NCBI GenBank assembly: GCA_964016885.1
Contig: OZ024740.1
Coordinates: 383,222,001 to 383,286,000, forward strand
DNA length: 64,000 bases
Direction: 5' to 3'
Source of the DNA: Eledone cirrhosa
Taxonomy: Eukaryota
Positions 24,302 to 45,436 of the stretch are shown here, piece by piece (positions within the stretch are counted from its first letter, which is position 1; each line of letters begins with the position of its first letter). A program made the translations under genes and the position numbers. The notes beneath the pieces were generated by a model. The model was given only the letters and a program-made list of their open reading frames with translations. It searched no databases and was not told where the DNA came from.

Positions 24302-24334
24302 CTTTTGAAAAGCAGAACTGCGAAACCTGTAAAG
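24302..24334 (+). ncRNA. Minimal hammerhead, U3-A8 core variant
   Basis: ctt TTGAAAA gcag aa ctgc GAAA cctg TA aag, within repeat copy 24272-24467. Confidence 0.6.
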
Positions 24335-25128
24335 GAACCAAATAAATATATATATTTTTTAAAAAGACTGCTGCTGCATTTACGATTTCATCTTTTTTCC
24401 GTATACTTTCACTCGTTTAGGACACCACTTTTTTTTTATTTAAAAAACAACAACTCACTTTCTAATATCTATATATATATCTATATATCTATATCTATAT
24501 CTATATATGTATATATATATATATATATATATATATATATATATATATATATATATATATATATATATATACACATACATATATATATATTTGTGTGTGT
24601 GTGTATATATATATATATATATATATATATATATATATATATATATATATATTATTAGAAATGTAAGCTCTCGCCGTATTTTGACTAAAGAAATGAAAGA
24701 AATTATTTAGCCTGACAGTGGGGTTAAGAACCCACAGAGAAATGGAAAAAGATGAGTATTGACGTACATGACGTACATATATATATATATATATGTGTGT
24801 GTGTGTGTGTGTGCGTGCGTGCGTGCGTTTGTGTGGGGTGTGGGGGTGTCTGAGGCGGGGTGTAGTTATCAAAACAAAACAATTTGTGTTTATAATAATT
24901 TATCTTATCCGAAAGCAATGATAAACACACATTTTCGCTGCTAATTTTCACATATTTGAATGCGCAAAATTATATTAACAAACAAAATGTTAACAATTTT
25001 CTTTTACGATTTCATGACTTAAATAAAATGAGAACTTTAAAAAATCTTTCATATTAGTCACAACTATATATATATATATATATATATATATATATATATA
25101 TATATATATATATATATATATATATATT

Positions 25129-25268
25129 TTTTTTCTCATCTATTTTCCTTATACACGCGCACACACATATTTAGACATATACACATACGAATATATATAT
25201 ATATATTCGTATGTGTATATGTCTAAATATGTGTGCGCTCGTGTATATGAAAAATAGATGAGGAAAAT
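25129..25268. repeat. Palindrome centred on (AT)n
   Basis: ctcatctatttt..catatttagacatatacacatacgaat mirrors attcgtatgtgtatatgtctaaatatg..aaaatagatgag. Confidence 0.85.
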
Positions 25269-25542
25269 ATCTCACAAATGCCAGCGGCACAAATATGAAT
25301 CACAAATTTCGTTTTTGTACGTAATGCTCTTACGTGATGTTTGTTTTCTTTTACAATAATCTATTTTGCAAATAGATACACCTTAGCGATTCTAAATCCG
25401 AAGCAGAAAACATTAAAAAATATTCAGATTGTACGCTGAACATTATATTAAAAGGCTAGTCTGTTCTATGGAGCGTGGCAAATGACATACATTCATATTT
25501 GTATCTGCATGAACAATAGGTGCTATCGACAATATATATATA

Positions 25543-26208
25543 TGGTAAGTCAATGGTAAACATTGAAGACATAATGAATTAACTGTGGAGATATAAAAGA
25601 TACGGAAGCAAAAACCAACCAAACATTGAATGTGTTCTGTTATTATTTCTGGCTATATTATTACAACCTTATGACCGTCCCCAATATAACAATATTTGTT
25701 TCGACACACGATTTCATATCAAAAACCTCGCAAAACAAATTTATCGCCGTCATGGCATTAGCTTGTGCCAAGCTGAAAGGTTATTGAAAGATACTGTTGT
25801 CTATTATATAAAAACTACAATAACAGAACAAATCGCTTCTTAAAACACTGTGTTTCCTTCAAAATATACAAGAGAAACATATCAAAACGAGTAAATAATT
25901 TATTATTAAACAAAACACAAGCTGAAAAAATGGCTTAGATATACAATACAACAGGAGGAACATAATAGTACCACTGACGATGTTGTAGATGTGCAACGAA
26001 ATAAATTTGTTTCACTATATAAATGTGTTTATATCTATATTATATCTGTATTTTTTACCGTTGGTCTGTCAATGGTAAACATTGAGGACCGAGTGAATTA
26101 ACTGTGGAAATATAAAAGATACAGAAGTGAAAACCCACTAAACAGTGAGTGTGTTCTGTTATTATTTCTGGCAATATTATTACAACAATATGACCCTCCT
26201 CAAGTATA
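25543..26208 (+). mobile_element. Small non-coding unit with diverged direct repeats of about 145 bp (25543-25690, 26062-26208) and an internal hammerhead
   Basis: gtcaatggtaaacattga..tgaattaactgtgga.atataaaagatac..gtgttctgttattatttctggc..atgacc occurs twice about 519 bp apart; TA runs at both ends. Confidence 0.6.
25965..26018 (+). ncRNA. Type I hammerhead (proximal stem I damaged)
   Basis: atagtacca CTGACGA t gttgta gatg tgcaac GAAA taaatttg TT tcactat. Confidence 0.6.
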
Positions 26209-26929
26209 AATATATATATATATATCCAAAATTTAATTAAGGGTGTCATGTTGGAGAGACATGAACCTTATCCACTGCAGAATAAGCTGAAAGGTTCCAA
26301 TGAATAGATCCGAGCATTTTATATCAACCAGAAATAGATTGACATATATATTGATTGACATATATAAAATAAACATATGAAACAATCACAGGTAATAATT
26401 TGTAAAGTGTGTAAGCACACATAGCTAAGTAGGTAACTAATTAAAGTTTAACTTGAACTTGAAATATAGATATCTTTAAAAATGATTAATCTCCTTTGTA
26501 TATATTTCTTTAAATAAAAATTATATTTCACCAATTAATCCGTAAATCACAGTAGTCAAATCCCGGATGGTCACCAAAGTATTTCCTGTCTCTGGATCTT
26601 CTATAGTTCCTAGGGTCCTTATATTAGTATTCGGTTCATTTTATTTCTGATGCACGTTATCTATTTCTATGTTTAGTCCTATATTTGTTATTTTGTAAAT
26701 AGAACCCTTTTTGTACTGCTGACCATGTTATTCTTCACTCTTTCACTATTATTACTCCAAGATTAACTTGCATAGGAACTCCTGAGAACACACAAACTCG
26801 CTACCTAAGGAAACCACTTGTTGAGTCAAACAAAAAACTACGCTAAAACTATCCAAATTACGGAGTATTCACAACCTCTTACTGGATTACCTATAACGAT
26901 AATTTGATATATATATATGTATAGTAATA

Positions 26930-27122
26930 ATATTTGTTTCTACTTTTGGCACCAGGCCAGCAATTATCCCAGTGCATTACTGTAACTTTATTTTATCGAC
27001 TCCGTAAGGATGAAAGGCAAAGTTAACCTCGGCAGGATTTGAACTCAGATCATAAAGGGAGGTAACACTATGCTTCAAAGCATGGCGCCCGACCCTCTAC
27101 CGATACTGCCAATCCACCGCCC
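26930..27122 (-). mobile_element. SINE, same family as 47766-47950
   Basis: Reverse complement of ggcggtggattggcagtatcggtagagggtcgg...ctttgcctttcatccttacg..gtcgataaa. Confidence 0.85.
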
Positions 27123-43778: not shown

Positions 43779-43922
43779 GATATATATATATATATATATA
43801 TATATATATATATATATATATATATATATATATATATATATATATATATATATATATATATATATATATATATATATATATATATATATATATATATATA
43901 TATATATATATATATATATATA
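43779..43922. repeat. (TA)n microsatellite, representative of dozens of (TA)n, (GT)n and (GA)n tracts in the window
   Basis: Direct reading; these tracts generate the YIYI, VCVC and THTH pseudo-ORFs. Confidence 0.99.
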
Positions 43923-44743
43923 GTATTAAGGATACTATTTATGGTTATGTATATAATAAAACCTTTTATGGTTATATATTTTTTATACAAACCCCAAATA
44001 GTGAAAGATAGTAATTTATTACTATCTTATTACCAGTAAGATAAATAGGTCAATCTAATAACATCAGTTGTTTTACAGATCAGTTATATAGAGATTACTA
44101 AACAACATGATCTATTGATTAAGAATCGACAAGACATGGTTTATAACTTGGAATCGACAAGACATGGTTTATAACTTGGTTATATGCTAAACCGTCGTGG
44201 ATTATATGATAGACCCGTGGTCTATATATTGCATCTCATGGATTATGTGAGTGGTAGTGTGCGCGAAGACAGTGGTACTGTTTTGCCTACGCTATAATAT
44301 GTTTTATAATATGTTTGATATTTTTGATATTGTGGTGTTTCTCTACATTCGGGATTGTATACCATACAGGTGTATGCGAAAAAATGATTTAACAATTCAG
44401 CCCACATAATACTATCGATTACCTGCTTCAACTGCCTGATCCTGCAACTAACAATCTGCCGCACTCTAATCCTGTATAAATAAGACACGCGTGCATGCTA
44501 CACGTGAGAATGTTTCATACACTGACTGCTCTAAACTTTCCTCTCGCTTTATCTTCATAAACTGCCAATGTTTCATTTTTATTTTTATTTTTATTTTTTT
44601 TTTATCCTGTAACCTTTATATGTAAATGGCCATGCTATATCATTTTGATGGATGTCATCCCACTGTGGGTCAATATATGCATATGTTTTTATATGTCTCT
44701 TGTGTTGAAAAAGAGGTCAAGTATGTTATAGATCACTAAATAG

Positions 44744-44792
44744 TTGCTCCGAAGAATCCGAACCTCGGTTTGGAGGAAACAATTGTAAGCAA
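44744..44792 (+). ncRNA. Type I hammerhead, core CCGAAGA, palindromic stem III, GUA site
   Basis: ttgct CCGAAGA a tccgaac ctcg gtttgga g GAAA caattg TA agcaa. Confidence 0.8.
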
Positions 44793-44987
44793 ATAAATGA
44801 TTTAAACTGAACTTTGATTATTGTAATCTCTCTCTATATATATATATATATTAGAAAGTGAGGGTTTTTTTACAAAATGAAAAATAACCGAGGTGTCCTA
44901 CACGAGTGAAAGTATAAAGAAAAAAAGATGAAATCGAAAATGCAACTGGAGTCTTATTTAAAAAAAATATATATATTTATTTGGTTC

Positions 44988-45023
44988 CTTTACTGGTTTC
45001 GCAGTTCTTCTGCTTTTCAAAAG
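44988..45023 (-). ncRNA. Minimal hammerhead, U3-A8 core variant
   Basis: Reverse complement: ctt TTGAAAA gcag aagaa ctgc GAAA ccag TA aag. Confidence 0.6.
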
Positions 45024-45400
45024 TAGAGTTGAGATGGAGGGTCTGGGGTTTTTCTCCTATCTGGTTGGTCCCTGAATGTTACAGCCATAATTTCATTTAT
45101 AACCAATCAAATTACGTTTATTAAAAGAAAGCCTTCGTGAGCCCCCTTTTTTTAAGCAAAAAGAAATTCAAACACTCATATATGAAAAAACAACCTTTAA
45201 CCCCCCCCACCCCACCCCCCCTCCTTGTTTGAAGAACTTTGTAACGCGAACTGGCGCGAAATTTATTATAATTATTGACTATCCAATAAATTACTTCTCG
45301 AAAAACCTGGCATTTCGAGCCACTTTTTCCATATAAAACAAGTAACATTCAGAGACCAACCAGATGTGAGAAAAACCCCAGACTCTTCATCTCAACTCTA

Positions 45401-45436
45401 CTTTTGAAAAGCAGAATAACTGCGAAACCGGTAAAG
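45401..45436 (+). ncRNA. Minimal hammerhead, U3-A8 core variant
   Basis: ctt TTGAAAA gcag aataa ctgc GAAA ccgg TA aag. Confidence 0.7.

What the first reader, a model, noticed from the sequence alone, without database searches (positions are those of the whole stretch)
24302..45436. Multi-copy minimal hammerhead with a compensatory U3-A8 core (UUGAAAA)
Seen: four copies at three loci (24302, 30790, 44988, 45401) read ctt-TTGAAAA-gc(a/t)g-loop-ctgc-GAAA-cc(g)g-TA-aag, only 33-38 nt long. Known: positions 3 and 8 form a tertiary Watson-Crick pair, and U3-A8 rescues activity but is rare in nature and missed by CUGANGA searches. Inference: a successfully spreading family fixed the double change, which implies selection for cleavage; no coding partner is present in the window.
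Basis: partly seen in the sequence, partly recalled or inferred. Interest (0 to 1): 0.75.

Follow-up and report, generated by a model that had tools for sequence, protein, structure and literature searches.

The report
Penelope retroelement hammerhead, known U3-A8 type
These four motifs are scattered end pieces of a very abundant Penelope-type jumping gene that carries a small hammerhead RNA predicted to cut itself; its swapped U-A core pair is real but already published for such elements, so this is a largely ordinary new example, with a modest genomic hint that the RNA is sometimes cut.

Summary
Confirmed: four motifs at the stated coordinates, in three insertions; only the one at 45401 keeps both stem II and the ACCGGT palindrome. 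They are 3' end fragments of a young autonomous Penelope-like element (ORF1 plus a 775-aa RT/GIY-YIG ORF) found elsewhere in the genome, with 11,984 exact motif matches. Copy number does not show selection. Better evidence: a sister family (58% protein identity, unalignable UTR) keeps UUGAAAA and GAAACCGGU around a different stem II, and Penelope relatives in 22 of 80 metagenome loci pair positions 3/8 as C-G (17), U-A (3), A-U (1), G-C (1). U3-A8 is therefore recurrent in these elements and is published (PMC4209133, about 1,300 hits in Schistosoma; PMC3088659). 5' junctions are enriched around the predicted cut (35 at -1..+1 versus 11 at -9..-5, of 84), but 0 of 86 full-length 5' ends start there: cleavage is probably rare and does not define the template. 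No RNA or assay evidence. This scan has noted U3-A8 Penelope hammerheads and cut-site footprints before on other DNA (unchecked notes). New member of a known kind.

The parts
45401..45436 (+). Intact hammerhead motif: stem I CTT/AAG, core TTGAAAA (U3 45404, A8 45409), stem II GCAG/CTGC, GAAA, palindrome ACCGGT, predicted cut between 45433 and 45434
45078..45512 (+). Direct arm of insertion 3: 3' UTR end, hammerhead and short tail ending at (TA)n
   Evidence: BLAST to full-length copy L102, 86-89% identity
44849..45082 (-). Inverted arm of insertion 3, long tail ending at (TA)n
44988..45023 (-). Hammerhead motif with palindrome broken (ACCAGT)
30281..30968 (+). Insertion 2: 5'-truncated 3' UTR fragment of the parent element between (TA)n runs, with an internal inverted patch
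30592..30656 (-). Inverted patch carrying only the 3' half of the hammerhead and the start of the tail
30790..30827 (+). Hammerhead motif with 4-bp stem I and intact palindrome but a T.T mismatch in stem II
24284..24467 (+). Insertion 1: short, more diverged terminal fragment ending at (TA)n
   Evidence: 82-87% to the other copies
24302..24334 (+). Degenerate hammerhead motif (2-nt loop II, palindrome broken: ACCTGT)

Best explanation
The motifs are passively copied ends of an abundant autonomous Penelope-like retrotransposon, whose pseudo-LTR carries a small type I hammerhead with a U3-A8 core that likely cleaves only weakly, as a dimer and probably with help from the element's protein. Shown: the motif lies about 1.05 kb after the RT/GIY-YIG ORF and, in tandem copies, about 180-210 nt before ORF1; insertions end 80 or 150 nt past it at (TA)n runs; positions 3 and 8 co-vary as a pair across Penelope relatives. 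Inferred: two motifs pair through the ACCGGU palindrome to form helix III; reverse transcription starts in the tail 3' of the motif and nearly always reads through it, so the template is mostly uncut (or re-ligated/circular) RNA; in roughly 1% of events it meets a cut 5' end and stops or jumps there, which leaves the excess of junctions and short duplications at the cut site. U3-A8 is a tolerated compensatory swap fixed once in the ancestor of two families here, not a special adaptation.
For: Parent: 18 of 18 fetched stretches (chosen for an intact ORF) hold the 775-aa ORF, 17 of 18 with the motif downstream; Pfam GIY-YIG above cut-off and RVT_1 just below it. 11,984 exact matches, reversed-pattern control 0. 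Sister family B: ORF2 57.7% identical, UTRs share only simple repeats and the two hammerhead boxes, same position 194 nt before ORF1, stem II GATGG/CCATC instead of GCAG/CTGC, same palindrome, GUC cut triplet. In 80 metagenome loci with related RTs, a scan with 3/8 free gave 26 sense-strand and 4 antisense hits; 24 of the 26 have a Watson-Crick 3-8 pair. The RT tree needs 4 changes for the U-A label, A and B are sisters (96/95) and their two nearest relatives are C-G. The predicted lowest-energy dimer of copy 45401 and of a full-length copy contains the intermolecular ACCGGU helix. Junctions: first 100 of 281 pattern matches, 84 after dropping 14 internal indels and 2 mirror copies: 35 at -1..+1 vs 11 at -9..-5, expected share 0.33-0.36 under four null models, p about 1e-8; position 0 alone 14 vs 6-7 expected, p 0.003-0.01. 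Pattern counts 76 at the cut vs 35 at -3; hand tally: 19 of 44 events at -2..0. Literature: PMC4209133, PMC11167929 (protein-assisted, dispensable for insertion in vitro).
Against: No cleavage assay and no RNA data. 0 of 86 junctions in front of ORF1 start at the cut; 61 run past it. The junction excess is broad (+1: 12, +2: 14 as well as 0: 14) and no baseline 3' of +4 could be measured because that stretch is low-complexity, so a step or an RT pause at the 3' edge of the fold fits too. Family B has only a 2-bp stem I, my automatic scan missed it in 20 of 20 loci, and RNAfold prefers another fold for it (P of the first stem II pair 0.01). In three damaged window copies the predicted dimer pairs through CUUUUGAAAAG instead of the palindrome. 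PMC11167929 found no RNA-seq reads ending at the cut site of another Penelope hammerhead. Rfam gives no hammerhead match.
Confidence: 0.72

Rival explanations
1. The fold is kept as a structural or protein-binding signal (or a recently dead ribozyme) and does not cleave in vivo; the junction excess comes from RT pausing at the fold's 3' edge and from A/T microhomology.
For: 0 of 86 full-length 5' ends at the cut; broad excess from -1 to +2; weak stem I and competing fold in family B; hammerhead mutants did not affect insertion in vitro for another element (PMC11167929).
Against: The 3-8 pair, which forms in the active conformation (PMC3884650 passages), co-varies through all four Watson-Crick states in relatives; microhomology-weighted nulls do not reproduce the skew; tandem duplications begin at the cut in four independent insertions (L411, L413-415, L422, C1:152839362).
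Confidence: 0.2
2. Cleavage is efficient and essential: transcripts are cut at both hammerheads, ligated into unit circles, and RT copies the circle across the sealed site, so few junctions fall there.
For: The tail 3' of the motif is the same sequence as the 5' UTR in front of ORF1, as a circle would give; proposed in PMC4209133.
Against: Uncut read-through from tandem copies gives the same structure; such small hammerheads cleave poorly in vitro (PMC4209133); 5 of 18 full-length stretches already have an upstream motif that could supply tandem RNA.
Confidence: 0.07
3. Chance resemblance amplified by a repeat family.
For: AT-rich, short motif; no Rfam match.
Against: 0 hits in 60 shuffles; same boxes at the same position in family B with a different stem II; 26 sense vs 4 antisense hits in relatives.
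Confidence: 0.01

Closest known systems
U3-A8 hammerheads of Schistosoma mansoni Cercyon Penelope-like elements (Cervera and de la Pena 2014, PMC4209133; parts 1-2 of 4 read, figures and supplements not seen)
   Same: U3-A8 core, location in the pseudo-LTR, thousands of dispersed single or inverted copies from truncated elements, predicted dimer activity.
   Different: Here stem II is 4-5 bp, there is no extra base between positions 9 and 10.1, helix III carries a 6-nt palindrome as in the paper's 'small palindromic helix III' class, and copies are very homogeneous.
Natural U3-A8 hammerheads (Perreault et al. 2011, PMC3088659; passages read)
   Same: C3-G8 to U3-A8 covariation in nature, stated there to be active in vitro.
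   Different: The passages read do not concern Penelope elements or forms without a stable helix III.
PAc hammerhead of the Anolis Poseidon element (Frangieh et al. 2024, PMC11167929; parts 1-2 of 4 read)
   Same: Hammerhead in the terminal repeat, two RT start sites 3' of it giving two tail lengths, AT-rich targets.
   Different: PAc has C3-G8, a single ORF overlapping the ribozyme, and no RNA-seq ends at the cut; here the motif is non-coding, the element has two ORFs and a small junction excess at the cut.
Neptune/Nematis-type Penelope-like elements (Craig et al. 2021, PMC8557442; passages read)
   Same: RT, CX2-5CxxC linker, C-terminal GIY-YIG, (TA)n targets, inverted 5'-truncated arms, tail; ORF1 separated by a frameshift is mentioned in the Fig. 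1 legend.
   Different: Placement between Neptune and Nematis was not tested against named references.
Animal non-LTR retrozymes (PMC7229834 passages; bioRxiv 10.64898/2026.07.22.740005 part 1 of 5)
   Same: Type I hammerhead with a palindromic helix III in dispersed non-coding copies.
   Different: These copies are truncated ends of an autonomous element, not tandem non-coding units; a separate C3-G8 466-469 bp array family in this genome fits retrozymes.

Membership tests
Type I hammerhead of Penelope pseudo-LTRs, small palindromic helix III class | Core boxes N3-UGA-N7-N8-A9, GAAA, UH in type I order | tested here: met
   UUGAAAA / GAAA / UA in all 4 copies; UC in family B
Type I hammerhead of Penelope pseudo-LTRs, small palindromic helix III class | Watson-Crick pair between positions 3 and 8 | tested here: met
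   U-A; covariation C-G 17, U-A 3, A-U 1, G-C 1 in 22 of 80 related loci
Type I hammerhead of Penelope pseudo-LTRs, small palindromic helix III class | Helix II opening with G10.1-C11.1 | tested here: met
   4 bp in family A (broken in copy 30790), 5 bp of different sequence in family B
Type I hammerhead of Penelope pseudo-LTRs, small palindromic helix III class | Palindromic helix III allowing a dimer | tested here: met
   ACCGGT in families A and B and in 2 of 4 window copies; predicted dimer for copy 45401 and a full-length copy
Type I hammerhead of Penelope pseudo-LTRs, small palindromic helix III class | Short helix I | tested here: inconclusive
   4 bp in most full-length family A copies, 3 bp in 3 of 4 window copies, 2 bp in family B; PMC4209133 reports 2 to 5 bp
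Type I hammerhead of Penelope pseudo-LTRs, small palindromic helix III class | Position in the pseudo-LTR of a Penelope-like element | tested here: met
Type I hammerhead of Penelope pseudo-LTRs, small palindromic helix III class | Site-specific self-cleavage | not testable with these tools
   Only an indirect junction excess
Strict min-HHR consensus of Cervera and de la Pena 2014 (not filed here) | Extra base between 9 and 10.1, long helix II (7-8 bp), no helix III loop | tested here: not met
   Families A and B have none of these
C-terminal endonuclease Penelope-like element (Neptune/Nematis type) | RT followed by GIY-YIG | tested here: met
   (GIY-YIG above cut-off; RVT_1 28.7 bits vs cut-off 29.6)
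C-terminal endonuclease Penelope-like element (Neptune/Nematis type) | CX2-5CxxC linker before the endonuclease | tested here: met
   C-X4-C-X2-C in families A and B
C-terminal endonuclease Penelope-like element (Neptune/Nematis type) | Partial tandems, inverted 5'-truncated arms, tail, (TA)n targets | tested here: met
   tails long 21, short 11, other 1 of 33 copies
C-terminal endonuclease Penelope-like element (Neptune/Nematis type) | Phylogenetic placement among named clade references | not tested
   The tree holds no named references
Animal non-LTR retrozyme | Tandem non-coding units each with a hammerhead, no own ORF | tested here: not met
   Copies are truncated ends of a coding element
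Rfam hammerhead families | Match to a curated model | tested here: not met
   No match at E up to 5 or 10; the canonical motif at 37549 is missed too and L318 scores only 19 bits, so the test has little power

The most novel reading that the evidence does not exclude
The genome keeps a fossil record of in vivo cleavage by a natural U3-A8 hammerhead: about 1% of this element's copies stop or re-jump at the predicted cut, while full-length templates are read through. With the 3-8 pair toggling through all four Watson-Crick states across Penelope lineages, this would show that Penelope hammerheads are selected for catalysis yet act on a minority of transcripts, and it makes the open question of their role countable from DNA alone.
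Probability: 0.5. Interest if true: 0.5.

Novelty: new member of a known kind. Interest (0 to 1): 0.3.

Why it matters
The U3-A8 variant itself is known. What is useful: CUGANGA descriptors and Rfam miss about 12,000 motifs of one family in this genome, and 5 of 22 motif-bearing relatives have a non-C-G pair, so statements that a Penelope lineage lacks hammerheads need searches with positions 3 and 8 free. The role of Penelope hammerheads is still called unclear (PMC8557442); a young family with many intact ORFs, a sister family with a different stem II and a countable junction signal is a good test system.

Tried and rejected
Rfam: no hammerhead match in the window or on the isolated motif. 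The repeat finder was swamped by microsatellites. Sequencing runs: no RNA holder listed; laying four contig sets was uninformative because cover stopped at the predicted cut, where the tool skips repeats. Sequence-only alignment of motifs put the boxes out of register, so no pair count was made on it. Within-family conservation as a test of selection: uninformative, and the sample of 68 was biased to one young subfamily by the anchor used. A C3-G8 subfamily inside family A: none among 89 non-U3 matches (the pattern fixed the rest of the motif, and U3 with a changed position 8 was not counted). Cleavage as the usual 5' end of full-length elements: rejected, 0 of 86. The control at -3 is partly made of junctions whose microhomology also fits position 0, so 76 vs 35 is only a rough contrast. 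A looser U3-A8 pattern gave 33 matches against 22 in the reversed control, so only the recurring ones are counted as candidate families. Two papers that bear on activity (Lunse et al. 2017, PMC5785218; Przybilski and Hammann 2007, PMC1986816) are not held; I saw only their titles in reference lists, and a search for C3U/G8A data gave 0 papers, so the size of the activity loss in U3-A8 is not known to me from any call. Retrozyme and chance readings rejected as above.
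Full report
Observation. The four motifs are at the stated coordinates. They belong to three insertions: 24284-24467, 30281-30968 (with an inverted patch at 30592-30656) and the two-armed 44849-45512. A descriptor that leaves positions 3 and 8 free but paired finds three of them and one unrelated C3-G8 motif at 37549, against 0 hits in 60 shuffles. Only copy 45401 is intact: 30790 has a T.T mismatch in stem II; 24302 and 44988 have lost the ACCGGT palindrome. Rfam does not see any of them.

Parent element. The window lies in a 3.0 Gb animal genome. 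Thirty close copies share a sharp 3' end at (TA)n and ragged 5' ends. Walking upstream gave an RT and a GIY-YIG reading frame, and a protein search showed many copies with an open 775-aa frame. All 18 stretches fetched for such a frame hold it; 17 of 18 have the motif about 1.05 kb downstream and 5 of 18 have it also about 180 nt before a 410-aa ORF1. Pfam gives GIY-YIG above cut-off and RVT_1 just under. A C-X4-C-X2-C linker, (TA)n targets, inverted arms and tails match the description of Neptune/Nematis-type Penelope-like elements in PMC8557442 (passages); the clade was not tested against named references. Insertions end about 150 nt (21 of 33) or about 80 nt (11 of 33) past the predicted cut, like the two RT start sites reported in PMC11167929 (parts 1-2). 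The window holds no coding part of this family.

Abundance. An exact pattern with 3 and 8 free has 11,984 matches and 0 in the reversed control. 89 of them lack U3; all 89 keep A8 and none is C3-G8, as expected from decay after insertion. This shows that the masters carry U3-A8, not that it is selected: in 68 young copies core and flank are both almost invariant.

Evidence for selection on the fold. A second family found beside one copy is 57.7% identical in ORF2 and 36% in ORF1. Its UTR shares only simple repeats and two short stretches with family A, and these are the hammerhead boxes. It reads TTGAAAA, a 5-bp stem II of different sequence, GAAA, the same palindrome and a GUC triplet, 194 nt before ORF1. 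Against: its stem I is 2 bp, my scan requiring 3 bp missed it in 20 of 20 loci (I found it by eye and confirmed it by pattern), and RNAfold prefers another fold. In 80 metagenome loci encoding related RTs a scan with 3 and 8 free gave 26 sense and 4 antisense hits; 24 of the 26 have a Watson-Crick 3-8 pair, spread over 22 loci: C-G 17, U-A 3, A-U 1, G-C 1. Each motif is tied to its RT only by strand and proximity. On an RT tree of these 22 plus A and B, A and B are sisters, their two nearest relatives are C-G, and the U-A label needs four changes (unrooted, so direction is inferred from the majority state). U3-A8 is thus a recurrent swap in Penelope hammerheads.

Mechanism. A monomer cannot close helix III (predicted pairing 0.000); the lowest-energy dimer of copy 45401 and of a full-length copy pairs the palindromes between molecules, the arrangement proposed in PMC4209133 (parts 1-2), where such motifs cleaved weakly and only as multimers. 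Does cleavage shape insertions? Of 86 junctions in front of ORF1, 61 run past the predicted cut, 24 stop 34 nt or more 3' of it, 1 did not align and 0 start at it. So cut RNA is not the usual template. To look for rare events I collected copies whose sequence departs from the family 10-12 nt before the cut (281 matches; first 100 examined). After dropping 14 internal indels or duplications and 2 mirror copies, 84 remain: 35 begin at -1..+1 and 11 at -9..-5, where uniform and microhomology-weighted nulls expect about equal or more upstream (p about 1e-8); position 0 alone has 14 against 6-7 (p 0.003-0.01). A hand tally of (TA)n-flanked junctions agrees (19 of 44 at -2..0, 20 over -3..-28, 5 at +2, biased toward positions near the anchor), as do pattern counts of 76 vs 35 (with the caveat). 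Four independent insertions carry short duplications that begin at the cut. Against: +1 and +2 are as high as 0, and no baseline further 3' could be measured, so an RT pause at the 3' edge of the fold remains possible. Scaled roughly, the excess is about 1% of copies (inference). No RNA run was listed.

Comparison with what is known. PMC4209133 reports U3-A8 in Schistosoma Penelope hammerheads with about 1,300 hits; PMC3088659 reports natural U3-A8 covariation and cites in vitro activity (passages); PMC3884650 confirms the 3-8 pair in the active structure (passages); PMC11167929 shows a Penelope hammerhead that needs the element's protein, depends on the 3-8 pair and is dispensable for insertion in vitro; PMC6765202 reviews the dimer model (passages). 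One search for genomic junctions at Penelope hammerhead cut sites listed 4 papers; in the one of them that I read on this point (PMC11167929) no such signal is reported, and the other three I saw only as listings, so I do not claim that it is unpublished. A search joining a guessed host taxon with hammerhead and Penelope listed one paper. Earlier notes of this scan describe U3-A8 Penelope hammerheads and cut-site footprints on other DNA, one in this genome for another family; a look-up by sequence found none on this family. I had reached this reading before opening them, and they are unchecked.

Verdict. Real motif, right structural reading, identified parent, known variant. New member of a known kind; interest 0.3. 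The most novel live reading, a genomic record of rare in vivo cleavage, has probability about 0.5.

Noticed in passing
L101:3430-3517 and L268:6996-7080 (parent elements); L314-L325: ORF1 overlaps the RT ORF in the -1 frame with an in-phase U UUU UU(A/G) heptamer in 9 of 10 elements examined, 19 of 19 family A copies keep it, and family A has no Met in the first 162 codons of the RT frame: a likely programmed -1 frameshift conserved across the clade. The Fig. 1 legend of PMC8557442 already mentions a frameshift-separated ORF1 in some Penelope types; which clades could not be seen.
   Followed up: partly
window 37545-37590 (+): A canonical C3-G8 small hammerhead of an unrelated repeat, missed by Rfam.
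   Followed up: no
L149-L178 (e.g. G000:C1:5738326-5752444): Tandem arrays of a 466-469 bp unit with a C3-G8 hammerhead and compensatory stem II variants, 9,696 pattern matches vs 184 control: retrozyme-like.
   Followed up: no
L121, L130, L133, L136, L137, L143, L145, L148; L132, L134; L125; L120, L146; L129, L147: Further low-copy, decayed candidate families with a U3-A8 core and other stem II sequences; L125 and L134 lie beside Penelope ORF remnants.
   Followed up: partly
L361:1969 and L364:117: Penelope hammerheads with A3-U8 and G3-C8 cores in metagenome contigs.
   Followed up: no
L296, L297 (G000:C3:212893863-212894033); G000:C1:313417294: Pieces that look like large-subunit rRNA (recalled resemblance, not tested) joined directly at the predicted cut site, as from a template switch.
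   Followed up: no
window 18340-20141 (+), 35750-36787 (-), 49648-50286 (-), 425-796 (+), 57604-58338 (+): Fragments resembling other Penelope-like RT or GIY-YIG frames; only 18340-19050 gave a weak RVT_1 hit.
   Followed up: no
window 7247-11996 (-) and 37986-42477 (-): Two LINE-like elements with endonuclease and RT frames, by motif recall only.
   Followed up: no
window 45400-45411 region of the motif: With U3-A8 the stretch CUUUUGAAAAG is nearly self-complementary and forms the predicted dimer in copies that lost the palindrome: a possible competing fold created by the swap.
   Followed up: partly
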